Program-made: the position numbers and the translations under genes
In this document: piece after piece, positions 36,396 through 48,103 of the stretch
How positions within the stretch are numbered: position 1 is the stretch's first letter
How the letters are laid out: each line of letters opens with the position of its first letter
Notes under the pieces: generated by a model
Seen by the model: the letters and a program-made list of their open reading frames with translations, nothing else
What the model was told of the DNA's origin: nothing
Databases searched by the model: none
IMG/VR virus record: IMGVR_UViG_3300032246_001368
Coordinates: 47,584-111,583 of that record
DNA length: 64,000 bases
Strand: one strand, 5' to 3'
Source of the DNA: a virus

Positions 36396-36608
36396 ATGAA
36401 TAAAAAAGCTATCGCCGAACATTTTCTCAACCCCAACCAACCCAACCCCATACCTATGCCTCCTACATCCTTTCCTATTGCTAAAGCCACAGCCTTGAAT
36501 CTTTTCAAAGTATTTGGTTATACATACACAATCTTCTGTGTAATCTATGTCACTCTTTCTATATTATTCTCTACTGCCTATCAGATCGGTAAATTCTTTA
36601 GCCATTAA
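36396..36608 (+). CDS. Small membrane protein
   Basis: ATG 35 nt after repeat TTGACA; one hydrophobic segment. Confidence 0.55.
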   Translation: MNKKAIAEHFLNPNQPNPIPMPPTSFPIAKATALNLFKVFGYTYTIFCVIYVTLSILFSTAYQIGKFFSH

Positions 36609-36798
36609 TTGTGACCCGACGAGAATTTAAAAAGAAACATAATGCTCTGACCAAAGAGCTACAAAAGATGCTTGATGGTATTATAAAAGCCAACGAGCAT
36701 ATTAACAATCTCAGGCATCACGAGAATCTTATCCTAAATAAGATAAGAGAATTAGAGGATACCTATTATAAATAATTTTATAACTCCTTACAAATCAT

Positions 36799-37044
36799 AT
36801 GAATACAAATCACAAACTATTTAAACGACCCGCTGTTGGCATTAGTAAAAAGTGTTACAAGATCCTAGACGAAGGTATGGTGGCTCTACAAGGCAACTGC
36901 CCGTTGACCCTGTTACATCGTAAGTTCCTACTGCATAACCTGATTAATAAATCTTATCAACTTGGTTATGAAAGAGCACTCAAGAAGTATAAGATCAAAC
37001 AAGAGACCGTCTGGAGTCGTATCCTCAGGTACTTTTCTTTCTAA
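36799..37044 (+). CDS. Hypothetical protein
   Basis: ORF in + strand run. Confidence 0.5.
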   Translation: MNTNHKLFKRPAVGISKKCYKILDEGMVALQGNCPLTLLHRKFLLHNLINKSYQLGYERALKKYKIKQETVWSRILRYFSF

Positions 37045-37093
37045 TATCCCTTATTAGAGGGAGGTTCCCTTCCAAAGCCTTTATAATAAGAAC

Positions 37094-37513
37094 ATGAACA
37101 ATGAATTAGAAATGATTATTGCGGCTCGGGACCTAGCATTTGAGTCGCATAAGGGACAGTTTAGAAGGGACGGTAAGACTCCTTATTTCAATCATGTGGC
37201 GGCGGTATCTCTTATGGTTGATCCTAACAACCCAGATAATGTTACCACGGCCTTCCTCCATGACATCTTGGAAGATACCCCTTTGTCCTCTAAGACCCTG
37301 AGCGACATGGGATTCCCAGACCGTATTGTAGAGGCCGTATTGCTTCTCACCCGGTTCGATCATGATCCTTATATGGACTATCTTAAGGGTATTAAGGCCA
37401 ATCCTATTGCCCGTGCCGTTAAGATTGCCGACATGAAACACAATCTCAGCTGTGATCCTACCGTCAAACAAAAGGAAAAGTATGCCAAAGGCCTCGAATA
37501 TCTCCAGTCCTAA
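37094..37513 (+). CDS. HD-domain (p)ppGpp hydrolase-like protein (small alarmone hydrolase/Mesh1-like)
   Basis: HKGQFRRDGKTPYFNH, LHDILEDT, VKIADMKHN. Confidence 0.8.
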   Translation: MNNELEMIIAARDLAFESHKGQFRRDGKTPYFNHVAAVSLMVDPNNPDNVTTAFLHDILEDTPLSSKTLSDMGFPDRIVEAVLLLTRFDHDPYMDYLKGIKANPIARAVKIADMKHNLSCDPTVKQKEKYAKGLEYLQS

Positions 37514-38036
37514 GAAGACCCTAAGAGACTACGAAGAGCTCTTTCAACCCGATTATACCCCAAAGGACCTAGAGTCTCTTGGGGTATTTGATGAGCTCTA
37601 CTATAGGACCAAACCTAGACTGGCCAGCTGGGGACACTGGAAACCTGAATGGCTCCATCCTGAAGACAAGTATGGATTCCTCGAATGGTATACCAAGTAC
37701 TACTATGGTAGGCGAATGGCAGACGATGAAAGACAGCTAAAGCGTTGGTACGGATATAAGGTAAGAGCCAGCGGACTCCTGAGATATAAGCCTACTCCCC
37801 GAAGCGCCTTTGCTCTAAGAAACTGGGCCATCAATCCCCTGCTCCAATTACCTAATATCCAAGATCGCGATATATTACATGCCAAGATGGAAGCCTATAA
37901 GGCAGAGATCTATAGTACCATAAAGCCCGACAGAGACTATCAGTACGACTTTAAACTCCATGGCTTCAATGTAGACAGAATAAGAATGCAGTATGAGAAG
38001 CCCTTCGATTCCTATATGAACAAGGTATCTTCCTAA
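37482..38036 (+). CDS. Conserved protein of unknown function (D.YG..EWY..YY.GRR..DDERQ..RW family)
   Basis: Motif recognised from large DNA viruses and some bacteria. Confidence 0.55.
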   Translation: MPKASNISSPKKTLRDYEELFQPDYTPKDLESLGVFDELYYRTKPRLASWGHWKPEWLHPEDKYGFLEWYTKYYYGRRMADDERQLKRWYGYKVRASGLLRYKPTPRSAFALRNWAINPLLQLPNIQDRDILHAKMEAYKAEIYSTIKPDRDYQYDFKLHGFNVDRIRMQYEKPFDSYMNKVSS

Positions 38037-38338
38037 GTATTTTTATATCATGGAAACCCCCGACCTCTATAAGCTAGTAGAAACATTAAGAAAGAACAAC
38101 AAGACCGATCAATATATAATAGAAGTATTGGTTAGTATCATCAAACAGTATATGACGGCCGGGGGATCTTTATCAGATATTATCAACTACCAATTCTATA
38201 TGGCTAATAAAGAATCAAGGTAATATAAAGATAGTTAATAGTAATAATTTAATAGCACACCCCGATTTAATACAACATGATGTTCTATTAACGCGTTTTT
38301 ATTATCAAACCTCAGTAGAAATACCCCCTTTTATTAAC

Positions 38339-38393
38339 AAAAAGTTATTAAAAATAAAGAAAAAGTTATTAAAAATAAAGAAAAAGTTATTAA
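38339..38393. repeat. 21-bp tandem repeat AAAAAGTTATTAAAAATAAAG (about 2.6 copies)
   Basis: Direct reading; lies in a long A-rich intergenic region. Confidence 0.85.
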
Positions 38394-38803
38394 TTCCCGG
38401 GAACTAATATTAGTAACAATATAGTATATATAAGAAGAAAACATATATAGAACTACTGTATTGTAGAATACAATATAGTTAATAACATACTTTATATAGA
38501 GAGAATAAAGAAAATACATAGATAATCTCTATAGAACAACTCTTTAATAGGCCTTTATAATACCTTAGGGAGAACAAAGGAATCAGAAACAAGGGAAAGT
38601 AATAAGAAGACTATATAAAGGATCTAATAAGGTCTAAAGGGGTATAATAAGAATCCTAAGGAATAAAGGGTTAATAAAGTGTATAAACCTTCCGCCCCCC
38701 AATTTTTCCCACAGACCAAATTAATTTTATAGGAATTTTTGGGAAAGGGCAAGCAAAAAAGCAGGATATTAGGGAACACCCACCCAGCACAGGGGGTATT
38801 CAG

Positions 38804-38887
38804 TAACGACCGGTTGTTAACTTTTTAACGACCGGTCCATATCTTTTTTAACGACCGGTTGTTAACTTTTTTAATGACCGGTCGGTA
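38804..38887. repeat. Four phased TAA(C/T)GACCGGT sites (22-23 bp period)
   Basis: Copies at 38804, 38826, 38849, 38872. Confidence 0.85.
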
Positions 38888-39109
38888 TAGAACGCGCATA
38901 CCTATATACTAATATACCCCCTGAGGAAACTCACGCCAAAAATTGAGGCTTGACCTTTCCAGAGAATTCCTATATACTTCCCTGGGTGCAGCCGGCATTT
39001 GGGGTCCAGTTCAATTATATAGGATAATAGGGGAAAGGTCCCGCCTCAAAGGCGCTAGGAATCAGAGCAGCCTCGGTGGCTTGCGTATCAGTCATACGCT
39101 CCATTTTTA

Positions 39110-39697
39110 TTATACTTTTAGTATAGAGGAATTAGAGGGAAAGGTCCCGCCCTTTTTACAATTATCTTCGCCCCAAAGAGGTTGTAGGTTAGTATAATGG
39201 AAACACTCTTTCTTTTGGGACTCTTCAAATAGATTAAACATACAACAAGGCTTGATATGATCTACATGCCACACCCCATAGTTATCCCAAGACATACCCT
39301 CTGTGAATTGTGACTCTAGGTGTTTCTTTAAAAAGGATAGGGAACAACCCACTAGGTCCTCGGTTCTAAGGGTGTTTGATTTCTGTTTAATAACCTGTCT
39401 CAGACGATGTCTAAGGCCCTTTCTAAGTCTATAGGTTATATTGGTTTTATTTAATTCCCTTTCTTTCTCTTTAACATAGGGTCTATTGCGGTAAGCTTTT
39501 CTATATCCCTTACGGTTAGGGGATCGTTCTCTTTGGTATTCTCTTAGTTTCTCCTTATTATTCTTTTCATAGAGGGAATGATAGGATTTCTTACACACCT
39601 TACACTTACTCATATAGCCGGTTACATTTCTTCTGTCTTTAAAAAATTCTTCCACCGGCTTTTCTGTCTGGCAATTACCACAAAATTTTGTTATCAT
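39110..39697 (-). CDS. HNH homing endonuclease
   Basis: HLESQFTEGMSWDNYGVWHVDHIKP ... CFHYTNLQPLW..DN; N-terminal Zn finger; TAAGTA upstream. Confidence 0.85.
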   Translation of the reverse strand: MITKFCGNCQTEKPVEEFFKDRRNVTGYMSKCKVCKKSYHSLYEKNNKEKLREYQRERSPNRKGYRKAYRNRPYVKEKERELNKTNITYRLRKGLRHRLRQVIKQKSNTLRTEDLVGCSLSFLKKHLESQFTEGMSWDNYGVWHVDHIKPCCMFNLFEESQKKECFHYTNLQPLWGEDNCKKGGTFPSNSSILKV

Positions 39698-39906
39698 AAT
39701 AGTACTTATCCCCAACCCTCATTTAATCAAGACAAGTGCCAGTCCCCTACCCTCGGGGTTCTATCCCCTGTTAGCCCTGAGTCACGATCGAGGCTCTCGT
39801 TGTTTTGATTATGTATATAGTATATCTGATTATGGGGGAAACCTCCAGCCTATAGCTTTCCCAGAATCTTCTTTTCTTTTCCCACAATCGCTATTATAAT
39901 AAGGGC

Positions 39907-40116
39907 ATGAAAAACAAAAACACACCTATTGAAGGTTCTATCATGGAAGGCGTCTCTGTTCGTACTGGTGTTCACAAGTATGATGATAAGAATAGGACGG
40001 TAGTAGAATTGACCTTTAATAGTTACAATTGTTCCTATGTTCAAGTTATTGACCTAGTAACCGCGGCGAGTCTTATTAAACAGCTTAGGGAACAAGGTAT
40101 TAGCCAGGCTGATTAG
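39907..40116 (+). CDS. Small early-type hypothetical protein
   Basis: TTTCCC box + TATAAT, leaderless ATG. Confidence 0.6.
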   Translation: MKNKNTPIEGSIMEGVSVRTGVHKYDDKNRTVVELTFNSYNCSYVQVIDLVTAASLIKQLREQGISQAD

Positions 40117-40153
40117 TCTTGAGATTACCCCCAATAACCTATATACTAATAGT

Positions 40154-40327
40154 ATGAACAATAAGAACACCGTAAAGGATATCGTCGATCATCTGGAGTC
40201 CAAGGATATGTCCAAGGACTTCATCATTGGAACCCTGATGGCCATGCTCGATGGTCTCACCTATGAGTATAGTGGGACCGCGCAGCAGACCATCGATAGT
40301 TACATCAACCGCTACGTCAACAACTAA
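40154..40327 (+). CDS. Small early-type hypothetical protein (57 aa, not in ORF track)
   Basis: ATG 35 nt after TTGAGA; MNNKNTVKDIVDHLE... Confidence 0.6.
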   Translation: MNNKNTVKDIVDHLESKDMSKDFIIGTLMAMLDGLTYEYSGTAQQTIDSYINRYVNN

Positions 40328-40333
40328 TAGGGA

Positions 40334-40369
40334 TTGACCTTTCCCCCTAAACCCTAGATAATAATAACA
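40334..40369 (+). promoter_or_regulatory. Representative leaderless sigma70-like promoter with TTTCC(C) box (about 25 copies in window)
   Basis: TTGACCTTTCCCC...GATAAT...ATG; similar at 32297, 33088, 40119, 40799, 41287, 42068, 42617, 42998, 43178, 45466, 46467, 46826, 47244, 48371. Confidence 0.8.
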
Positions 40370-40795
40370 ATGAAAAACACCACCTCGTTTGATCTCGACA
40401 CCATCTCCTCTTACGATAGCCTCCAGAAGGCTGCTAGGGCTCGTTGTAAACATACTAGCAGGGAGGGCAATGTAGGCCTTACCTTCTCTATCTTTGAAAG
40501 CGCTTATGGTTGTCCTATTAAGGGAGACTGGGTAGTTCGCCATCCTGATATCTTTGATGAGGGAGCGGTATTCGAAGGCAAGTGTGTCTTTGTTACCGAT
40601 TACTGGAGGGTATCTGAGAATGAGGTATTCAGCGAGCCTATGGAGAATCCTACCTGGAGCGATATCATTAGCGAATGTAATCGCCAGCTCATTGATCCAG
40701 AGGACGGTAGTACCGCTTGCCTCTTCCTTGAAGGCTTCTATGAGCTCGAGCCTAAAGACGGATGCCGAGTATTTGATATCTGTTGGGGCTCTTAA
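40370..40795 (+). CDS. Early-type hypothetical protein
   Basis: Own promoter; ENPTWSDI ... FLEGF ... WGS motif. Confidence 0.65.
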   Translation: MKNTTSFDLDTISSYDSLQKAARARCKHTSREGNVGLTFSIFESAYGCPIKGDWVVRHPDIFDEGAVFEGKCVFVTDYWRVSENEVFSEPMENPTWSDIISECNRQLIDPEDGSTACLFLEGFYELEPKDGCRVFDICWGS

Positions 40796-40833
40796 GAGTT
40801 GATCTTTCCCCCATAATCCATTATACTAATAGT

Positions 40834-41085
40834 ATGAAAAATAAAGCATACCAATTCACCGAGATGTCCGAAGAAGAGCGTTCCATGCATCTCTTCTATA
40901 CGATCGAAGGAATGATCGAAAGCCTCCAGGAGATTAGCAATGAGATGGATCCTGAGTCTCCTACCGGATGCAGTCGCCTAGCCCTCATATCTGATATGGA
41001 AGAGAAGATAGAGGCTCTTTACAATCGAGTTCATAAGGACTTTATCTCTAACAAAACCAAGAACGCAATCGCCTACTCTATCTAA
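40834..41085 (+). CDS. Early-type hypothetical protein
   Basis: ATG 35 nt after TTGATC. Confidence 0.6.
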   Translation: MKNKAYQFTEMSEEERSMHLFYTIEGMIESLQEISNEMDPESPTGCSRLALISDMEEKIEALYNRVHKDFISNKTKNAIAYSI

Positions 41086-41087
41086 AC

Positions 41088-41279
41088 ATGACCTATCGCC
41101 AATTCATTAAGCAGATGCAAGACCAGTACGAAGAGCATCTGGACGATCAAATGAAGCTGCAATCGACGCACGACAATGCGCTATACAGCGTTTTCTGCGG
41201 CCGAGTGGCACAGAGTGACGCCCCTTACGATGACATCAAAGCTGATGATCTCATCATGATGATCGACAATTACAATTGA
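41088..41279 (+). CDS. Hypothetical protein
   Basis: Coupled ORF. Confidence 0.55.
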   Translation: MTYRQFIKQMQDQYEEHLDDQMKLQSTHDNALYSVFCGRVAQSDAPYDDIKADDLIMMIDNYN

Positions 41280-41401
41280 TTGGGGGTTGACCTTTCCCCG
41301 GTAATCCCTTATTATATATACATGCTTAAGAAACACCACGGAGGTATAACCCTACGGTTTACCCGGAAATCCATTCGAGCAACCCTAACCCTTTCCTAGT
41401 A

Positions 41402-42070
41402 ATGAAGAAGAAGAAACCTAAGAAGCTTTCCCGGAAACAAGCCATTGCCGATTCCCGGGTACCTGTAAAGATTTCCCGGAAACGTATCCCTAAGAGCGAG
41501 CGTATCAATAAGGCTAACCAGTTCGAATACCTAGGAATCAATACCTGGGTAAAGACTTTCCAGGGAACTAACAAGTTTCCCCACAATAAGATTACCTGTG
41601 CTGAGTGTAGGCATAATACGGTTTCCATGTTTGGTAACCAGTTAGCCAATTACCTGGTAAAGTATAATGGAGATGTCTATAAGCTCCTCACAGAGTTTAA
41701 GTGCCGGCTATGTCGTTCCCTGGATAAGGAGAACATCAAGATCAAGGAGCCTAAGGTAGAGAAGGAAAAGAAAACCCAGGAAAAGGTATTCCTTTCCCCG
41801 GAAGAATGGGAGGCTCGTAAGGAGGAGGTCCGTAAGACCCTTCCTAAGATGAACCCTAACTACGAGACCGTTCAGATCGATCTTACTAAGGATAAGAAGA
41901 TGTGTTCCCAGGTAACCGCTATGGCATGCTACCGTCCAGACATCTTCCTTGATCGTGGATGTGCCGAGTGTGTCCTGGCTAAGAACTGTGCCTGTCCTAT
42001 TAAGGATCTCAATCGTATTCCAGATAACCGTCCAAGGAAATTCAAGCGAGCAGTGACGAAAGCCGCTTGA
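41402..42070 (+). CDS. Basic Cys-rich (putative Zn-binding, nucleic-acid-binding) protein
   Basis: CAEC, CRLC, C..ACYRPD..CAEC..CAC; Lys-rich. Confidence 0.6.
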   Translation: MKKKKPKKLSRKQAIADSRVPVKISRKRIPKSERINKANQFEYLGINTWVKTFQGTNKFPHNKITCAECRHNTVSMFGNQLANYLVKYNGDVYKLLTEFKCRLCRSLDKENIKIKEPKVEKEKKTQEKVFLSPEEWEARKEEVRKTLPKMNPNYETVQIDLTKDKKMCSQVTAMACYRPDIFLDRGCAECVLAKNCACPIKDLNRIPDNRPRKFKRAVTKAA

Positions 42071-42101
42071 CATTTCCCAGGAACTATACTATTATTCTTA
42101 T

Positions 42102-42329
42102 ATGCACGTATGGCAATCTAAACAAGTCTTGAAAACAGCTAGCACCTATCAGGTACCTAGTCACGTCAAGAACAGGACCAAGTCTATCTCCAATGAAGAT
42201 TGGGAGAGGCAGGTTAAGGAATTCAAGTACAACAAGTTAGTCGTACTCGATAAGGTACCCAAGGCAGTCAGAAAGCCAAGGGAGGACGGTAAACAAACAA
42301 ACAACACAGAAAGGAAAAACAGACAATGA
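42102..42329 (+). CDS. Hypothetical protein
   Basis: Promoter immediately upstream. Confidence 0.5.
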   Translation: MHVWQSKQVLKTASTYQVPSHVKNRTKSISNEDWERQVKEFKYNKLVVLDKVPKAVRKPREDGKQTNNTERKNRQ

Positions 42330-42565
42330 CGACAATGACATCTAATAACACGATCGTTCGTAGCATCAGTGACCTCACCGGCACCGCAGTCTCCAGCCGC
42401 ATTGGCAAGACCGCAAAGCTTGAGTTGGTCTCCGAGAGCATCAACGAGAGCCGTTACGAGATTCTTGGCATCGTTGGCCGTAGTAACAATGTCATGTTGC
42501 GCCCACGTTTCTATAACGTTCGCAATAAGGCAGGTCAGTTCACTACTCGCCGCCGTAGCCGATAA
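42326..42565 (+). CDS. Basic hypothetical protein (RNKAGQF tail)
   Basis: ATGA-coupled; followed by terminator. Confidence 0.55.
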   Translation: MTTMTSNNTIVRSISDLTGTAVSSRIGKTAKLELVSESINESRYEILGIVGRSNNVMLRPRFYNVRNKAGQFTTRRRSR

Positions 42566-42576
42566 TCCCAATCGTT

Positions 42577-42615
42577 AAAAGGGATCTAGTAAAATAAAAC
42601 CTAGATCCCTTTTTT
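42577..42615 (+). terminator. Intrinsic terminator
   Basis: AAAAGGGATCTAG / CTAGATCCCTTTTTT. Confidence 0.75.
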
Positions 42616-42651
42616 CTTGAACTTTCCCACTCAATCCCTTATTATATATAC

Positions 42652-42903
42652 ATGATTGATTCAAACCTGTATCGTAAGATTGAAATGGCTGGTGAGGCTC
42701 TCTTGAATGATTTCGAGTTGACTCATCCGGATATGAGTGGTGATCAGATCCGTACAGATCTTCTTCTTGATCATGCAACTAAGATCATGCATATGAGTGT
42801 AGATAATGATCTCCTCGAAGGGATTATCGATAAGGATCGCGAAGACGATCCTGAGCACAAAGCTCTTCTCCTAACCTCTGGAGCATATTTCGTAACCCTC
42901 TAA
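42652..42903 (+). CDS. Acidic hypothetical protein
   Basis: ATG 35 nt after TTGAAC. Confidence 0.6.
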   Translation: MIDSNLYRKIEMAGEALLNDFELTHPDMSGDQIRTDLLLDHATKIMHMSVDNDLLEGIIDKDREDDPEHKALLLTSGAYFVTL

Positions 42904-42911
42904 CCCTTTAT

Positions 42912-42989
42912 GCCTCGGTAGTCCAATTGGCAGCAGACAAGCGACTTAAAATCGCTCCAGTGCGGGTTCGAATCCCGCCCGAGGTACCA
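42912..42989 (+). tRNA. tRNA-Leu(TAA), short variable loop
   Basis: Acceptor GCCTCGG/CCGAGGT-A-CCA; anticodon arm AGCGA-CTTAAAA-TCGCT; GGTTCGAATCC. Confidence 0.85.
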
Positions 42990-43369
42990 CTTTCAGATTG
43001 ACCTTTCCCACCAATTGCTTTAATATATAAACAATGAAACACCTCCTACACCTCCTTGGTTACACTCAACGTAAGCCTTCACTCCTCCTCATGCACATGT
43101 GTGACGTTACTCACAGCTCCTGGATACAGGATCTCTATCGTACCAACCGCATTAACGATTATCTTATTAAGTAAGAGTTGAACTATCCCACTAAACGGAG
43201 TATAATAATATTATGATCATTGAATTCACCCCTGGCAAGATGCCAAAGAGTAAAGAAGCTTTAAAGGATATTATCCTCGAGGCAGTCAAGAAGTCTTCAA
43301 CGAACCCTGAGACCGTTAATGCCGGCCGACAGTCCCAGGATAACAATACAAAGGCCGGCGTTCCTCATC

Positions 43370-43588
43370 ATGCAAACTAAAGTCACACTCACGGATCTAA
43401 TTCGTAACATCTTAAATACAGAACAGGAACTATCCGTAAAAGATATCCTTACTAAAGTACAAGAGACTATTGCAGGAGAGCAACTAACCATACAGGCCGA
43501 CTACCGTAAGGTATATCGTCACCTGCGTACGTGTGCGACTAAGACGGCACGAGGTCAGTTCTCCCTCACCGAGACCTCTGCCTCCTAA
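43370..43588 (+). CDS. Winged-helix-like small protein
   Basis: LTDLIRNIL...ELSVKDIL...VYRHL...RGQFSL. Confidence 0.5.
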   Translation: MQTKVTLTDLIRNILNTEQELSVKDILTKVQETIAGEQLTIQADYRKVYRHLRTCATKTARGQFSLTETSAS

Positions 43589-43611
43589 AGGTAAGTCTCG
43601 GCAACAATACT

Positions 43612-43705
43612 ACTGGGTTAATGTAATTGGAAGCATCGACAGACTTATAATCTGTGTTCGCCAGATTAGCGACGAGCGAGGGTTCGATTCCCTCACCCAG
43701 TACCA
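43612..43705 (+). tRNA. tRNA with TAT anticodon (Ile) and long variable arm
   Basis: ACTGGGT/ACCCAGT-A-CCA; ACAGA-CTTATAA-TCTGT; variable-arm stem TCGC/GCGA; GAGGG-TTCGATT-CCCTC. Confidence 0.8.
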
Positions 43706-43726
43706 ATTTCAAAACAAACAAATTAT

Positions 43727-43900
43727 ATGGAAGATACAAACACATCAAAAGAAGCAAAGGTATTCCAACTCTGCCAAGACCTGGAAGACATGAGAGACCG
43801 TAAGAAGGCATCTGGTAAAGCCTTTAACGATGAGATCAAGCGTATTCAAGCTGAGATCAAGGATCTAATTGATCCAACGGAACCTGAAGAGGCTCCTTAG
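43727..43900 (+). CDS. Small coiled-coil protein (57 aa, not in ORF track)
   Basis: MEDTNTSKEAKVFQL...IQAEIKDLI; fills gap between tRNAs. Confidence 0.55.
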   Translation: MEDTNTSKEAKVFQLCQDLEDMRDRKKASGKAFNDEIKRIQAEIKDLIDPTEPEEAP

Positions 43901-43907
43901 TAATTTC

Positions 43908-43980
43908 GCCCTTGTAGCTCAATGGTCAGAGCAGATCCCTCATAAGGATTAGGTTGGGGGTTCGAATCCCTCCGGGGGCA
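43908..43980 (+). tRNA. tRNA-Met/Ile2 (CAT), no encoded CCA
   Basis: GCCCTTG/CGGGGGC-A; GATCC-CTCATAA-GGATT. Confidence 0.85.
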
Positions 43981-43987
43981 CACTTTA

Positions 43988-44017
43988 GCATCTATCGTTC
44001 AACGGATAGGACAGGGC
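43988..44017 (+). pseudogene. 5' half of interrupted tRNA (probably Arg)
   Basis: GCATCTA acceptor strand + D arm GTTC-AACGGATA-GGAC + GGGC; pairs with 3' half at 44633-44669. Confidence 0.75.
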
Positions 44018-44027
44018 AAGACTTTAC

Positions 44028-44101
44028 GTGCCAGTAGCTCAATCGGATAGAGCAACGGTTTTCTAAACCGTAGGTTGCAGGATCGTACCCTGCCTGGCAC
44101 A
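44028..44101 (+). tRNA. tRNA-Arg(TCT), atypical T loop, no encoded CCA
   Basis: GTGCCAG/CTGGCAC-A; ACGGT-TTTCTAA-ACCGT; T loop ATCGTAC. Confidence 0.8.
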
Positions 44102-44590
44102 GTCTTTCAATAATCCATTATCAAACTCCCAATGGCAATTAGGACATAAAGGAATAACATTCTCTATAGAATTAATATCCCTCAATAAAGCATCGTCATT
44201 GAAAGAAGATATAGGTTTGATATGACAAAGTTCTATGTGCTTATCATACCCACAATTCAAACATTTATTACCTAAAAGAGGTTTTAACCAAGACCTAGCC
44301 ATTCCTCTTATATGTACATATATAGATGATTGATGCAAACCTTTTAAACATTCTCTAGATTTATAGTATCCCAATGTTCTGTCTTTATAAGATTCTTTCA
44401 AAGAACTTTTATATTCTTCCCAATGTTCTTTACATAAACTAGAATTCCATTTATGAGTAATGTTATCACATCTAGTACATTTCCTTTTACGAATTCGTTT
44501 GGGTGATGTCTTATTGGTATAAGTAGCCGCACAAGACCTTGAACAGAATTTTGGATTTGAAGTTTCTTCTTGACAATTAACACATTTCAT
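44063..44590 (-). CDS. HNH endonuclease with N-terminal Zn-finger
   Basis: KFCSRSCAATYTN; CLNCGYDKHIELCHIKP ... NVIPLCPNCHWEFD; start reassigned to MKCVNC after TAAGTA. Confidence 0.85.
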   Translation of the reverse strand: MKCVNCQEETSNPKFCSRSCAATYTNKTSPKRIRKRKCTRCDNITHKWNSSLCKEHWEEYKSSLKESYKDRTLGYYKSRECLKGLHQSSIYVHIRGMARSWLKPLLGNKCLNCGYDKHIELCHIKPISSFNDDALLRDINSIENVIPLCPNCHWEFDNGLLKDCARQGTILQPTV

Positions 44591-44632
44591 ATAATAATAC
44601 TTACCGTAATAGAACATATTATTTAAAACAAA

Positions 44633-44669
44633 AGCCTCAATGTTGGTTCGATTCCAACTAGATGCACCA
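44633..44669 (+). pseudogene. 3' half of interrupted tRNA
   Basis: AGCCT-CAAT-GTTGG-TTCGATT-CCAAC-TAGATGC-A-CCA. Confidence 0.75.
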
Positions 44670-44673
44670 TTTT

Positions 44674-44745
44674 GGAATCGTAGCTCAACGGTAGAGCAGT
44701 AGACTTTTAATCTATTGGCTATGGGTTCGAGTCCCATCGATTCCA
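44674..44745 (+). tRNA. tRNA-Lys(TTT), no encoded CCA
   Basis: GGAATCG/CGATTCC-A; GTAGA-CTTTTAA-TCTAT. Confidence 0.9.
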
Positions 44746-44826
44746 CTTTAATACAGAGGCATAAAATAATAACGCCGGCCTCTCTATTAACGTGAATTTT
44801 CCCACGTAAAGATTTATACTTATAGT

Positions 44827-45027
44827 ATGAAAAATGAAATGAACCGACACGAGAAGCTTGAATGGCTCTATGAAACCTGTGCCACCAGCTTCCTTCAAAA
44901 CAACCTCATTCAGGAAATGGTTACCTGGATGGGAGAGGATGAGTTCGATAAGTTCTACGAACACCTTTGCCGCAATTGGGAGATTGCTCGAAGCCCAGAA
45001 GAGCTAGCAGAGAAGATGTTTTCTTAA
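44827..45027 (+). CDS. Early-type hypothetical protein
   Basis: Leaderless promoter. Confidence 0.6.
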   Translation: MKNEMNRHEKLEWLYETCATSFLQNNLIQEMVTWMGEDEFDKFYEHLCRNWEIARSPEELAEKMFS

Positions 45028-45087
45028 CGGGGCAAGGGGGGAGAGGTTGTGGTGGCCTTTCCCCCCTAAATCCTAGATAATAAATGT

Positions 45088-45312
45088 ATGAAAAATAAGA
45101 AAACGTTCGAAGAAATCATGACAGAGTACAGGGCCCTGGGCGACATGATGCGCACCATGGTTCGTAACACAGCCGTAATGGAGCTGAGAGAGTGGGGCTT
45201 CGAGGAGATCGGTTCCTCAGATGTTAACTGCCAGATCGTCGACCTCTACAACAGCTACGGAGGATTCGACGAGATCGTACGCCACGGCCTCGAACTCGTA
45301 AGGACCCACTAA
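45088..45312 (+). CDS. Early-type hypothetical protein
   Basis: Leaderless promoter. Confidence 0.6.
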   Translation: MKNKKTFEEIMTEYRALGDMMRTMVRNTAVMELREWGFEEIGSSDVNCQIVDLYNSYGGFDEIVRHGLELVRTH

Positions 45313-45500
45313 TATGATCACCATCAAAGTAACCTTATCAAACGGCAACCGTTGGACCACAGGCTTCAACGGGACCCTCCAAGACGCAGAGACCTACTAT
45401 GTCGGTAGGTACTTCGAGACCGCAGACGAGCTTCATTCCCATGAATGCGTCAGAGTCGAATTGATTTGAATTTCCCCCATAAACCAAATATAATAATAGT

Positions 45501-45824
45501 ATGAAAATTAAGAACGCCCGAATGCAGTGGAGTCAATCAATGCGCTCCAAGAAGTCCGTCATGTACTTCTTTCCTACCGGAGAGACGATCCTCGATAATC
45601 TCGCTCAGCGTCGTAAGCGTCCTGTAAAGGAGTTTCGAGCGCTTATACCTCAAGTATGCGCAGCTGTTGGTATTACCAATATGCAAGACCTGAAGTTTAG
45701 CTGGAGCCAGAAGGCTGGATGCTCTTGCGGTTGCTCTCCAGGATTCGTAGTTAAAGGTCTCTATTGCAAGGACATCTTCGTCGATGTTACCATGGAGAAC
45801 GACTTCGAAGGTCTTGGACTCTAA
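45501..45824 (+). CDS. Conserved phage protein (WSQKAGCSCGCSPGF motif)
   Basis: Recurrent phage early-protein motif; own promoter. Confidence 0.65.
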   Translation: MKIKNARMQWSQSMRSKKSVMYFFPTGETILDNLAQRRKRPVKEFRALIPQVCAAVGITNMQDLKFSWSQKAGCSCGCSPGFVVKGLYCKDIFVDVTMENDFEGLGL

Positions 45825-45876
45825 GATTGTTTTTCCCACCTAAACCCATTATACTATAGGAACAATCAAACACCAC

Positions 45877-46143
45877 ATGAAGAACACTGACCCCACACAA
45901 AACTGCACAGACGCCCTTATCCTTTTGGTCAACAATGACGAATGGCTTCACCAGAGCTGGAGGAAGACTCTCCGCGCAGGCAATATGGTCCACGTTAAAG
46001 ATGCCTTGGAAGAGGCTGGATTCACCTACACTCCTTTCCAGTGGCAGGCTCTAGAGTTCGAGTTCGAGGACGAGCTTCAGGCTGAAGAGGATGCACAAGA
46101 GGCTAATGAGTTCTTCGTTGAGCTGTCCACATCAAACAACTAG
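45877..46143 (+). CDS. Acidic early-type protein (L..NNDEWL motif)
   Basis: Promoter upstream. Confidence 0.6.
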   Translation: MKNTDPTQNCTDALILLVNNDEWLHQSWRKTLRAGNMVHVKDALEEAGFTYTPFQWQALEFEFEDELQAEEDAQEANEFFVELSTSNN

Positions 46144-46152
46144 AATAGACTC

Positions 46153-46377
46153 ATGATTAAGAAAGAACACAGAGACAGAACAGTAGACGAACTCGTAGAC
46201 CTCTATCAGAAAGAGCTTGAGGCTCAAGGACTTACAGGAGCTGATAAGTGGGCTCGCTTAGCAGGAATGATCCAGGGACATTTCTCCTTCAGCATGACTT
46301 GGATGGGGACCAAGAAGGACATACAACAATCTCTCAACAATGTGGTAAATGATCTCGAAAAGAAGCTCACAGCCTAA
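46153..46377 (+). CDS. Hypothetical protein
   Basis: Coupled ORF. Confidence 0.55.
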   Translation: MIKKEHRDRTVDELVDLYQKELEAQGLTGADKWARLAGMIQGHFSFSMTWMGTKKDIQQSLNNVVNDLEKKLTA

Positions 46378-46501
46378 ACCTTTAACATAGAACATTTTAT
46401 GAAGAACACCAAAACAGTAATAGCAGCAATCGCAACACTCCTCCTCTGTGCCGCAGCCATTAAGGATTGAATTTCCCCCATAAACCTAATATACTAATAG
46501 T

Positions 46502-46762
46502 ATGAACAATAAGAACACCACATACAAAGGAGAAGCAGCAGTCCTCAAGTACCAAGAGATGGTAGAAGAGATCGCAGCCCTAGGCGAGAGCTACATCCTC
46601 ACCGAGATCGAGATCAAGAACAATACATTCAAGCAAGAGCCTAACCTCTACAAGCGCATGGCCCTCCTAGGAGAGATCACGATGCTTGAGAAAGCTCTCA
46701 AGGCCATCAAAGACATAGAGGCTGCAGACAAGTATCTTCTAAGTCAGACAGATAAGAGCTAA
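46502..46762 (+). CDS. Early-type hypothetical protein
   Basis: ATG 35 nt after TTGAAT. Confidence 0.6.
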   Translation: MNNKNTTYKGEAAVLKYQEMVEEIAALGESYILTEIEIKNNTFKQEPNLYKRMALLGEITMLEKALKAIKDIEAADKYLLSQTDKS

Positions 46763-46860
46763 TAACATTTCATAGCGGGTGGGTCGAGGGAGGAGACTTG
46801 TGGTGGGTCTCCTCCCTCTTTGCTGTTGAGATTCCCCCATAAAGGTCTTATAATAATAGT

Positions 46861-47235
46861 ATGAAAATTGAGAACACCACACCTACTGAAGCTCAAATCG
46901 AACTCGCCGGCTACCTCCTCACGCGCGAGACCATCTTCATCGAAGAGTGTGAGGCCGATATCAAAGCCGGCAAGACCGTCTGGTATGGAGTCGCCAGCAC
47001 GAGCCTAGAGGACATCATGGGTCTTACCCCCTACCGTAGCGGCTATAAGGACATCGCCGAGTATGAGTACCAAGAGGACCTCATTGAAGCTAAGGAGGCT
47101 CGTAAGAACTGGTACTGCGATCAACAGGATGCCTGGGAAGAGGAACAAAAGAAAGAAGAGGAAGCTCACCAGAAGGCCCTCAGAGAGTATGTAAAGACTG
47201 AATACCAACCACTAGGAGTCCCAGTCCTAGTGTGA
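46861..47235 (+). CDS. Acidic early-type protein
   Basis: ATG 35 nt after TTGAGA. Confidence 0.6.
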   Translation: MKIENTTPTEAQIELAGYLLTRETIFIEECEADIKAGKTVWYGVASTSLEDIMGLTPYRSGYKDIAEYEYQEDLIEAKEARKNWYCDQQDAWEEEQKKEEEAHQKALREYVKTEYQPLGVPVLV

Positions 47236-47278
47236 TTGGGGTATTGCCTTTCCCCCTTACAGCTTATATAATAATAGT

Positions 47279-47515
47279 ATGAACAATAAGAAATACGATG
47301 AACGTCACGGAGGCCCTTACGATCGCGGACACGCCGACAGCTACTACCGTCGCTCCAGGGAGCCTCACTACTACATGGCTGGCACTGGAGGCTCCCCACG
47401 CATCGAGGAGGCCAATATGACGCCAGAGGAGATCGAAGCCTACCATGCCGGCTATGATGCCAATGAGGCCGAGGGAGACTTCAAGGACTATGGATGGGGA
47501 GGAGGCCGCTACTAA
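47279..47515 (+). CDS. Conserved small phage protein (RHGGPYDRG.ADSYY.R family)
   Basis: Recurrent motif, MTPEEIEAYHAGY. Confidence 0.7.
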   Translation: MNNKKYDERHGGPYDRGHADSYYRRSREPHYYMAGTGGSPRIEEANMTPEEIEAYHAGYDANEAEGDFKDYGWGGGRY

Positions 47516-47522
47516 GGGTCTT

Positions 47523-47652
47523 AGCGACCGGTTGTTACCAAGCTCAAGATAACAACCGGTCGTAATAGCAACCAGGGGTAATACGATACCGACCGGTATT
47601 AAAGGACCCCGGACGTTCAAATTTGGTATATAGGGTAACGACCGGTCGGTAA
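47523..47652. repeat. Four GACCGGT-core sites arranged as two inverted pairs
   Basis: CGACCGGTTGTTA/TAACAACCGGTCG and TACCGACCGGT/ACCGGTCGGTA. Confidence 0.8.
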
Positions 47653-47745
47653 CCCGGGGGGGCGATCTCGGGTACCCGGGGTATAGGTATATGAGGTTAT
47701 ATAAGGTTATATAAGGATATACAAAGATCCGCGCTAAATAGTATC

Positions 47746-47874
47746 ATGACCAATAAATTTGATACTGTATACGAAAAACAGATGCATTGCTGGAAGGGGT
47801 ATAAGAAGAAAGGTACTAAGAAGCTTTCCTCTGGGAAGACCGTTAATAACTGCGTAAAGAAAGATTCTAAGTAA
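47746..47874 (+). CDS. 42-aa protein with CWKGY...NCV motif (not in ORF track)
   Basis: MTNKFDTVYEKQMHCWKGYKKKGTKKLSSGKTVNNCVKKDSK; TAAATA upstream. Confidence 0.65.
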   Translation: MTNKFDTVYEKQMHCWKGYKKKGTKKLSSGKTVNNCVKKDSK

Positions 47875-47917
47875 ATTGTTCTTGTCTTTCCTTTATAGAT
47901 TCCTTATAATAGAGGCT

Positions 47918-48103
47918 ATGAAGAAAACAACTATTAAGTTCCGCGACAACAAGTATCCATTCATGACTACTCTTATTGGTGGTACCTTTAAGATGAATGC
48001 TCTTATGGGTGTTAATACCTTTAGGAAGCTGAAGGCCTTGGGTATGCGTTATAGTCAGCATAAGATGGCCAATGGAAAGATCCTGGCTGTCCGTACTGCC
48101 TAA
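47918..48103 (+). CDS. Small basic hypothetical protein
   Basis: Promoter upstream; hairpin downstream. Confidence 0.55.
   Translation: MKKTTIKFRDNKYPFMTTLIGGTFKMNALMGVNTFRKLKALGMRYSQHKMANGKILAVRTA

What the first reader, a model, noticed from the sequence alone, without database searches (positions are those of the whole stretch)
38804..47652. GACCGGT dyad arrays bracket an ~8.8-kb early-gene/tRNA block
Seen: on the left, four direct copies of TAAYGACCGGT spaced 22-23 bp (about two helical turns) with T-tracts between. On the right, four copies of the same core arranged as two inverted pairs, followed by G/C runs and short tandem repeats. The enclosed DNA is GC-richer, with mostly single-gene leaderless units and all the tRNAs. 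Established: SPO1 and T5 carry host-takeover genes in a first-injected terminal repeat, delimited in T5 by a repeat-rich injection-stop signal. Inference: the arrays are protein-binding boundaries of a terminal redundancy or first-step-transfer segment, or replication/recombination sites.
Basis: partly seen in the sequence, partly recalled or inferred. Interest (0 to 1): 0.7.

Follow-up and report, generated by a model that had tools for sequence, protein, structure and literature searches.

The report
Dyad-site arrays flanking early-gene island
Two clusters of one 16-bp palindromic site, conserved in a few related uncultured T4-like phages, sit at both borders of the phage's immediate-early gene island; they are most likely docking sites for a single DNA-binding protein (origin-like or operator-like), and nothing shows that they are genome ends.

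Summary
The 8-mer CGACCGGT occurs nine times in the whole 111.6-kb contig, always inside two clusters (38804-38887 and 47522-47651). Each cluster holds four 16-bp dyads. A matrix of the eight sites finds nothing else above shuffle level. The arrays are kept in three relatives (G001, L176, L252): 2-4 phased sites on the left, three on the right. They are absent from four more distant relatives.

The phage is a distant T4-like myovirus. The enclosed DNA is a PeSL-like hyperplastic immediate-early island with about 20 sigma-70-type leaderless promoter cassettes, five tRNAs, two homing-type endonucleases and GC3-rich orphan genes.

The left array lies in the longest non-coding stretch of the contig, between divergent early promoters and beside an AT-rich segment. 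This resembles an iteron origin (lambda ori, T4 oriE) or an operator cluster.

An 11-bp deletion in G001 destroys the right-hand hairpin but keeps the dyads. This favours protein binding over RNA structure.

It is disfavoured: a relative's large terminase is T4 gp17-type, and the GC-rich zone starts 2.4 kb left of the array.

No binding protein was identified. A 73-aa winged-helix-like protein inside the island is only a lead.

The parts
38804..38887 (.). Left array: four 16-bp dyads in helical phase (22/23/23 bp) separated by T-tracts
   Evidence: Conserved in G001 (4 sites), L176 (4 sites) and L252 (2 sites).
47522..47651 (.). Right array: four dyads with irregular spacing (27/38/49 bp). Sites 1-3 are conserved in relatives; site 4 is specific to this genome.
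   Evidence: with alignments. In G001 two sites have a CCGCGG centre, and an 11-bp deletion brings sites 1 and 2 to 16 bp apart.
38724..38752 (-). Leftward early promoter (-35 at 38752-38747, -10 at 38729-38724), 51 bp from the array. Its transcript starts with a G-run and runs into AT-rich DNA.
   Evidence: PWM 25.2. Conserved in 4 genomes.
38950..38978 (+). Rightward early promoter, 62 bp from the array. It faces a convergent promoter at 39042-39014 (-).
38224..38700 (.). Non-coding flank: a terminator-like hairpin (38262-38300), three 21-bp AT-rich repeats (38333-38395), a 10-bp CCCGGG-centred dyad (38394-38403), then a variable spacer of 22-26% GC
38888..47521 (+). Immediate-early hyperplastic island: about 25 small orphan genes in leaderless single-gene promoter cassettes and 5 tRNAs. 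Two endonuclease genes lie on the opposite strand (39110-39715 and 44063-44746).
47652..47720 (.). G/C runs and a tandem repeat of a 10-bp unit just outside the right array. The G-run is conserved in G001 and L176.
43370..43588 (+). 73-aa protein with a three-helix, winged-helix-like model. Candidate binder only, not shown to bind.
   Evidence: Homologues occur only in array-bearing relatives.

Best explanation
The two arrays are clusters of binding sites for one sequence-specific dimeric DNA-binding protein, which is not yet identified.

Shown: there are eight near-identical 16-bp dyads and no others in 111.6 kb. They are conserved at both borders of the early island in related phages, with site cores kept better than the left-array spacers.

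Inferred mechanism: dimers bind cooperatively to the four left sites. These sites lie on one DNA face (about 2 helical turns apart) with phased T-tract bends, so the DNA is wrapped into a nucleoprotein complex in the middle of the longest non-coding region of the contig. That region has the anatomy of an iteron-type origin or control hub. The array sits between divergent host-type early promoters. The leftward promoter transcribes a G-run and then AT-rich DNA with three AT-rich 21-mers. This is the layout expected for R-loop or iteron-assisted initiation, as proposed for T4 oriE and lambda ori.

The right array is a second cluster for the same protein. Pairing of the two clusters would loop out the 8.8-kb immediate-early island.

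I rate 'protein-binding arrays' at about 0.7, and within that 'origin-like' only slightly above 'transcriptional operator or insulator'.
For: Specificity.

Dyad symmetry, phasing and T-tracts.

Conservation in four genomes: the dyad cores of left sites 1 and 4 are kept in all four genomes, and sites 2 and 3 largely in the three that have them, while the left-array spacers vary; the left copy number is 2-4.

In G001 an 11-bp deletion (about one helical turn) and 2-bp centre expansions remove the site-1/2 hairpin, but every site remains a dyad. This argues for DNA-level recognition.

This genome's right site 4 shares a 12-mer with its own left site 4 that no relative has. This suggests homogenisation of sites that serve one factor.

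The left array lies in an 885-bp gene-free stretch, between divergent early promoters, next to DNA of 22-26% GC whose repeats are conserved in four genomes.

T4 oriE has evenly spaced direct repeats, depends on an early promoter and lies at a point of transcriptional divergence and compositional shift (PMC3016281, read).
Against: No cognate protein was found. Pfam hits among 145 ORFs of the contig include no Rep, ParB, classical repressor or recombinase, but about half of the genome is missing.

No site overlaps a promoter core.

The right array has neither regular spacing nor an AT-rich flank.

The inter-site DNA of the right array is even more conserved than its sites. That hints at an additional, unexplained element.

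Only three related genomes carry the arrays, so the conservation statistics are thin.

T4-type phages are not known to need iteron-binding initiators, and the role of the T4 oriE repeats is itself unproven (PMC3016281).
Confidence: 0.4

Rival explanations
1. Transcriptional operators or insulators. A phage regulator binds both arrays and, by looping or roadblock, shuts off or insulates the roughly 20 strong early promoters of the island. The logic would be that of lambda OL/OR looping or the phi29 p4 switch.
For: The sites are dyads typical of operators. The clusters lie at both borders of the early island. The left array sits between divergent promoters and next to a conserved face-to-face promoter pair. 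A winged-helix-like 73-aa protein is encoded inside the island and is confined to array-bearing genomes.
Against: No site overlaps a -35 or -10 box. None of the internal promoters has a site. T4-type phages are known to end early transcription by other means. The fold match of the candidate is below the level the tool calls safe (Z 5.6-7.8).
Confidence: 0.27
2. Borders of a long direct terminal repeat or first-injected segment, or a packaging signal.
For: The island looks like the host-takeover blocks in the terminal repeats of SPO1, T5 and Kayvirus: small orphan genes with strong host-type promoters (PMC11598898). [quoted passage not shown] In the T4-like cyanophage S-PM2, a 9.5-kb 'ORFanage' lies next to a zone of 2-3-fold read depth that was read as terminal redundancy (PMC4503421).
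Against: The core genes are T4-type, and the large terminase of a relative is gp17-type. The GC3-rich zone starts 2.4 kb left of the left array. The arrays differ in site number and spacing between relatives. No contig ends at an array.
Confidence: 0.1
3. Recombination sites or ends of a mobile cassette: res-like sites or Tn7/Mu-like multi-site ends.
For: Multi-site ends with about 22-bp spacing are typical of Tn7/Mu elements. An unrelated hit of the pattern scan (L227) was such an end, next to a Mu-type transposase. The composition of the island differs from its surroundings. Gene content between the arrays turns over.
Against: No transposase or recombinase was found among 145 ORFs. The sites are not in mirror orientation at the two ends. 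There is no target duplication directly outside the outermost dyads. The same early-promoter type occurs inside and outside the island. The orientation and position of the island are the same in three genomes.
Confidence: 0.08
4. RNA or single-strand DNA hairpins acting as terminators or transcript-end stabilisers.
For: The left array folds into two 13-14-bp hairpins (-23.5 kcal/mol, z -6.7). Right sites 1/2 form a 13-bp stem 10 nt after a stop codon.
Against: Such hairpins follow automatically from neighbouring palindromes. The left array lies upstream of both adjacent promoters. No U-tract abuts the stems. The right hairpin is lost in G001 while the dyads persist, and no compensatory pair was seen.
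Confidence: 0.06

Closest known systems
T4 oriE repeats ('iterons') and other T4 origins (Kreuzer & Brister review, PMC3016281)
   Same: Both have evenly spaced direct repeats in a T4-type genome, depend on or lie next to an early host-type promoter, and sit at a point of transcriptional divergence and compositional shift. In both the binding factor is unknown.
   Different: The T4 repeats are 12-nt direct repeats, not 16-bp dyads. No second cluster 8.8 kb away is described for T4. Origin activity is untested here.
Lambda ori iterons; two-cluster initiator systems (P4 ori/crr, SPP1 oriL/oriR, R6K) - from my own knowledge, not checked in a paper here
   Same: Lambda ori has four dyad-symmetric sites about two turns apart, with phased A/T-tract bends and an AT-rich flank. 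In the two-cluster systems, distant clusters of the same sites are bridged by the initiator.
   Different: In those systems the initiator gene is adjacent or overlapping. None is recognisable here. The right array lacks regular spacing.
Lambda OL/OR operator clusters with long-range looping (my own knowledge)
   Same: Clusters of 16-17-bp dyads about 23 bp apart lie at the two borders of a gene block and are bound by one dimeric protein.
   Different: The lambda operators overlap the promoters they control and lie 2.4 kb apart in a temperate phage. Here no site overlaps a promoter, and the phage looks lytic and T4-like.
Borders of Kayvirus/SPO1/T5 long terminal repeats
   Same: An early host-takeover-like gene block is bracketed by short inverted repeats (PMC7596081, PMC11598898).
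   Different: Those phages are not T4-type and have proven fixed ends. Here the ends are untested and the terminase type argues for headful packaging.
PeSL promoter-stem-loop cassettes of T4-type hyperplastic regions (PMC2839356, PMC4122927)
   Same: The enclosed island consists of single small ORFs, each with its own early promoter, and its gene content is shuffled between relatives.
   Different: PeSLs describe the internal cassettes, not the dyad arrays. I did not check the PeSL papers for flanking arrays.

Membership tests
Long direct terminal repeat / first-step-transfer segment (T5, SPO1, Kayvirus type) | Doubled read depth and sharp read starts at the borders | not testable with these tools
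Long direct terminal repeat / first-step-transfer segment (T5, SPO1, Kayvirus type) | Packaging machinery of a fixed-end type | tested here: not met
   The TerL of the complete relative G003 matches T4 gp17-type terminases at 32-36% identity across 2614 records, mostly T4-like phages. The TerL of this genome itself lies in the missing half.
Long direct terminal repeat / first-step-transfer segment (T5, SPO1, Kayvirus type) | Block of small early genes with strong host-type promoters inside | tested here: met
   21 of 31 early-promoter matches lie at 38.7-48.4 kb, and the proteins are orphans.
Iteron-type replication origin | Three or more evenly spaced repeats about two helical turns apart | tested here: met
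   The left array has spacings of 22/23/23 bp, with 2-4 copies in relatives. The right array does not meet this (27/38/49 bp).
Iteron-type replication origin | Adjacent AT-rich unwinding region | tested here: inconclusive
   DNA of 22-26% GC with three AT-rich 21-mers lies 0.1-0.5 kb to the left. It is not directly abutting, and it ranks only seventh among the AT-richest 300-bp windows of the contig.
Iteron-type replication origin | Cognate initiator gene nearby, and replication starting there | tested here: inconclusive
   No Rep-like family was found among 145 ORFs. Half of the genome is missing. Initiation itself is not testable in silico.
Operator cluster of a repressor (lambda OL/OR type) | Sites overlap the regulated promoters | tested here: not met
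   The nearest -35 boxes lie 51 and 62 bp from the left array, and no promoter was found in the right array.
Tn7/Mu-type transposon ends | Transposase gene in the element, and sites mirrored at the two ends | tested here: not met
   No DDE or Mu transposase was found in the contig. The orientation of the strong half-site is + + + + on the left and +, -, +, both on the right.
ParB-parS type centromere or sliding-clamp loading sites | 16-bp palindromes plus a ParB-family gene | tested here: inconclusive
   The palindromes are present. No ParB-like nuclease domain was listed among 145 ORFs, but the genome is incomplete and only the top 25 of 37 families were shown.
Intrinsic terminator | GC-rich hairpin directly followed by a U-tract, conserved as a hairpin | tested here: not met
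   The T-run starts 6 nt after left hairpin 1. The right hairpin is lost in G001 and no compensatory changes were seen.

The most novel reading that the evidence does not exclude
The arrays could be loading or anchoring sites from which one phage protein closes the immediate-early island of a T4-like phage into a looped, insulated domain. That would switch some 20 host-type promoters off (or shield them) as one block, a domain-level control not described for lytic phages.
Probability: 0.13. Interest if true: 0.75.

Novelty: new variant of a known kind. Interest (0 to 1): 0.45.

Why it matters
T4-type phages are among the best-studied viruses. Even so, the repeats at T4 oriE have no known function, and no sequence-specific factor is known that marks the borders of their hyperplastic early regions.

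A conserved pair of highly specific site clusters around an immediate-early island gives a concrete handle. A 16-bp bait could be used to fish for the factor, and two small deletions could be tested. The outcome could bear on how such phages start replication, how they control or insulate early genes, and whether some of them have non-random genome ends.

If the arrays prove to be ordinary iterons or operators of a lineage-specific protein, the finding is a useful annotation and no more.

Tried and rejected

Closer relatives known only by protein (P0001, P0004 and others) could therefore not be fetched.

Megablast of the region against 50,697 phage records gave no match.

A loose two-site pattern in IMG/VR gave 118+ unrelated hits. 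The exact 16-mer hit only G001 and three chance sites.

The metagenome scan with the two-site pattern gave more than 120 hits. Nearly all are unrelated tandem repeats: coding repeats of 12/21/24 bp, a Mu/Tn7-like end, and a gatC-amidase spacer. I therefore dropped the idea of a widespread shared motif. Only L176, L252 and L279 are kin.

Rfam gave nothing but tRNAs.

Pfam and PHROGs on island proteins gave essentially nothing.

The protein atlas gave no lead for the 222-aa basic Cys-rich protein.

Foldseek against PDB gave no hit at E<=0.001 for the 73-aa model.

A search for longer direct or inverted repeats between the two flanks found only the dyads and one 16-nt hairpin core.

A de novo search for comparable clustered motifs in relatives G002-G005 found no equivalent arrays.

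Contig ends of relatives cluster near the anchor gene but on different sides. I therefore read them as assembly breaks in a repeat-rich region, not as termini.
Full report
**1. The observation**

The core GACCGGT occurs 14 times on both strands of the window, against 1.7 expected; no shuffle reaches 14. Ten of the 14 lie in two clusters. In the whole contig the 8-mer CGACCGGT occurs nine times, all inside the clusters. The contig is 111,583 bp and is classed by IMG/VR as linear and about 52% complete; the window is its last 64 kb.

Read with its flanks, every copy is a 16-bp dyad (consensus TAACGACCGGTYGTTA).
- Left array: four sites at 38804-38887, with centres 22, 23 and 23 bp apart and T5-6 tracts in the spacers.
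- Right array: four sites at 47522-47651, with centres 27, 38 and 49 bp apart. Sites 1/2 and sites 3/4 form inverted pairs. G/C runs and a short tandem repeat follow.

A symmetric weight matrix built from the eight sites scores them 17.6-30.3. The next best position in 111.6 kb scores 10.7, below what shuffled sequence reaches. The description is therefore accurate and far beyond chance.

**2. The surroundings**

The phage is a distant member of the T4 superfamily.
- Portal, gp23-type major head protein, gp6-like wedge, clamp loader, primase and helicase families are present.
- The head protein is about 35% identical to those of T4-like cyanophages.
- gp15, gp25, the prohead protease and the scaffold protein turn up in Pfam.

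The DNA between the arrays is 40-48% G+C, against 31-38% around it, and it holds all five tRNAs.

It contains a dense family of promoter cassettes. Each has a -35 box, a T3C3-5 motif, a 17-nt spacer, a -10 box and then an ATG 6-7 nt later.

A matrix of this promoter gives 31 hits in the contig and none in shuffles. All 31 lie between window 20.5 and 63.7 kb, and 21 of them lie at 38.7-48.4 kb. The same promoter type thus occurs inside and outside the block.

The proteins are orphans. There are two exceptions on the opposite strand:
- an EndoVII/HNH-like endonuclease at 39110-39715, absent from relative G001 and with a homologue in G004;
One of the 103 window ORFs matches Pfam HNH_2, but the summary does not say which.

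This is the picture of a hyperplastic early region made of PeSL-like cassettes, as described for T4-type phages (PMC2839356, PMC4122927).

GC3 is 0.49-0.72 in most island genes, with a few at 0.36-0.41 (39907-40116, 42652-42903, 43727-43900), against 0.14-0.34 in typical flanking genes. The GC3-rich zone runs from about 36.4 to 48.1 kb, so it overshoots the left array by 2.4 kb. The arrays are not the exact compositional boundary.

**3. Relatives**

A flanking 135-aa protein led to G001 (IMG/VR 3300010334_000034, 106.8 kb). G001 is collinear with this contig over about 100 kb at 66-90% DNA identity.

A two-site pattern scan of metagenome contigs added L176 (13.1 kb, spanning both arrays and the island) and L252 (3.6 kb, left side). 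It also returned L279, which duplicates G001.

Left array in relatives:
- It is present in all of them: four sites in G001 and L176 and two in L252.
- The spacing is 22-23 bp throughout.
- The dyad cores of sites 1 and 4 are invariant in the four-way alignment, while the spacers vary.

Right array in relatives:
- G001 and L176 have three sites.
- In G001 two of these have a CCGCGG centre instead of CCGG.
- An 11-bp deletion in G001 brings sites 1 and 2 from 27 to 16 bp apart.
- That deletion destroys the 13-bp hairpin between sites 1 and 2 but leaves each site a dyad. The alignment fold shows no compensatory pair.
- Site 4 exists only in this genome. It replaces an unrelated 19-bp segment and shares a 12-mer with this genome's left site 4 that no relative has. 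This looks like ectopic conversion between the arrays.

The island between the arrays is GC-rich in G001 too (43-55%). It measures 8.8, 10.4 and about 9.5 kb in the three genomes, with cassette turnover.

Four more distant relatives, G002-G005, include the 218.4-kb record G003, rated 100% complete. They share scattered island genes but have no such arrays. G003 does have its own 7-kb GC-rich block beside tRNAs. The arrays are therefore a lineage-specific addition, not a general feature of the group.

**4. What the arrays are**

Four features together point to recognition of double-stranded DNA by a dimeric, sequence-specific protein rather than to an RNA element:
- extreme specificity;
- dyad symmetry;
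- conservation of the dyad cores rather than of the left-array spacers;
- survival of the dyads when the hairpin is lost.

The strong single-strand fold of the left array (-23.5 kcal/mol, z -6.7) follows automatically from neighbouring palindromes. The left array also lies upstream of both adjacent promoters, so it is unlikely to be a terminator.

*The left array and its setting.* The two short ORFs in this stretch (38334-38519 and 38624-38779, both on the minus strand) look spurious: the first runs into the 21-bp repeats, the second starts upstream of the predicted start of the leftward transcript, and both lie in DNA that varies between relatives. If they are set aside, 38224-39109 is the longest gene-free stretch of the contig. 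It contains, from left to right:
- a terminator-like hairpin;
- three AT-rich 21-bp repeats and a short CCCGGG-centred dyad, all conserved in four genomes;
- a variable spacer of 22-26% G+C;
- a leftward early promoter whose transcript begins with a conserved G-run;
- the four phased dyads;
- a rightward early promoter facing a conserved convergent promoter.

This anatomy is close to that of iteron origins. It is also close to what is written about T4 oriE: evenly spaced repeats, dependence on an early promoter, and a position at a point of transcriptional divergence and compositional shift. The repeats' role at oriE is still unproven (PMC3016281). The anatomy is equally compatible with an operator cluster.

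*The right array.* It has half-integral spacings, which the 11-bp deletion in G001 preserves, and it has no AT-rich flank. It looks like a partner cluster rather than a second origin. DNA between its sites (47565-47586 and 47603-47635) is nearly invariant in three genomes, more so than the sites themselves. I cannot explain that.

My best reading is a nucleoprotein complex at the left hub, origin-like and slightly favoured over operator-like, with the right array as a second cluster that the same protein could bridge.

**5. The factor**

Pfam hits among 145 ORFs of the contig include no Rep, ParB, repressor, recombinase or transposase. The other half of the genome is missing.

Fifty-four ORFs are shared with G001 only. 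One of them, at 43370-43588 inside the island, is basic and is found only in three close clusters in a 5.8-billion-protein set. Its model is a three-helix domain with pLDDT 69. The best structural matches are winged-helix DNA-binding domains (Fur, AsnC, MecI, Orc1/Cdc6, TnsB), with Z 5.6-7.8 and Foldseek E>0.4. This is below the level the tool regards as safe, so the protein is a lead and not a finding.

**6. The terminal-repeat idea**

The analogy is fair. Early takeover genes sit in the terminal repeats of phage K (PMC11598898). [quoted passage not shown] In the T4-like cyanophage S-PM2, a 9.5-kb ORFanage lies beside a zone of raised read depth that was read as terminal redundancy (PMC4503421).

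Four points argue against it here:
- The large terminase of the complete relative G003 is T4 gp17-type. That type is established for headful, permuted packaging.
- The GC3-rich zone does not stop at the left array.
- Site number and spacing drift between relatives.
- All three contigs that reach both arrays run through them.

The decisive read-depth test could not be run. I put this reading at about 0.1.

**7. Other readings**

Transposon or recombination ends are unlikely. There is no transposase or recombinase, the sites are not mirrored at the two ends, there is no target duplication, and the promoter type is native to the genome.

The idea that the motif is a widespread iteron for some common protein was dropped. 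The many metagenome hits are heterogeneous tandem repeats picked out by the pattern.

**8. Verdict**

This is a real, conserved, lineage-specific pair of binding-site arrays at the borders of a T4-like phage's immediate-early island. Its function is unproven. It is most likely an origin-like or operator-like nucleoprotein site, and genome ends are not supported. The interest is moderate: the feature is clean and testable, but its kind (iterons or operators) is familiar.

Noticed in passing
window 38950-39042: Two early promoters face each other about 60 bp apart: + at 38950-38978 and - at 39042-39014. The pair is conserved in four genomes. The + promoter may give a roughly 125-nt non-coding RNA that ends at the hairpin 39083-39099 plus its T-run.
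   Followed up: partly
window 38262-38403: A terminator-like hairpin, three AT-rich 21-bp direct repeats and a 10-bp CCCGGG-centred dyad are conserved in G000, G001, L176 and L252. The 250-300 bp to their right vary freely.
   Followed up: partly
window 47565-47635: DNA between the right-array sites is almost invariant in three genomes, more conserved than the dyads and the neighbouring genes. No promoter, Rfam family or covarying fold was found.
   Followed up: partly
window 39110-39715 (-) and 44063-44746 (-): 39110-39715 is an EndoVII/HNH-like homing-type endonuclease gene on the opposite strand with low GC3. It is absent from G001 and has a homologue in G004.
   Followed up: partly
window 36400-48100: Early-island genes have GC3 of 0.49-0.72, against 0.14-0.34 elsewhere. 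The phage tRNAs (Leu-UAA, Ile-UAU, Arg-UCU, Lys-UUU, Met) read A/U-ending codons. This suggests that immediate-early genes are tuned to a GC-richer host, while later genes lean on the phage tRNAs.
   Followed up: partly
window 47636-47651 versus 38872-38887: Right site 4 is unique to this genome. It shares a 12-mer with this genome's left site 4 that relatives lack, which looks like ectopic gene conversion between the two arrays.
   Followed up: yes
window 41402-42070: This gene encodes a 222-aa, very basic (pI 9.8) protein with 10 cysteines in CxxC-like pairs and a Lys-rich N-terminus. It is 86% identical in G001 and has weak homologues in G002-G004. It is a possible zinc-finger nucleic-acid binder. 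No family or atlas lead was found.
   Followed up: partly
contig 1-47583 (outside the window; loci L139-L141): QueC, DUF366 and a glutamine amidotransferase are present, which may indicate 7-deazaguanine DNA modification. Two TnsA-like endonucleases and a GIY-YIG/NUMOD3 endonuclease are also present.
   Followed up: no
whole contigs G000 and G001: Two independent assemblies cover nearly the same half of a genome expected to be about 215 kb; their ends lie within 8 kb and 2.6 kb of each other. Contigs of three further relatives end within 2-4.4 kb of the 135-aa anchor gene. These are probably assembly breaks in repeat-rich early regions.
   Followed up: partly
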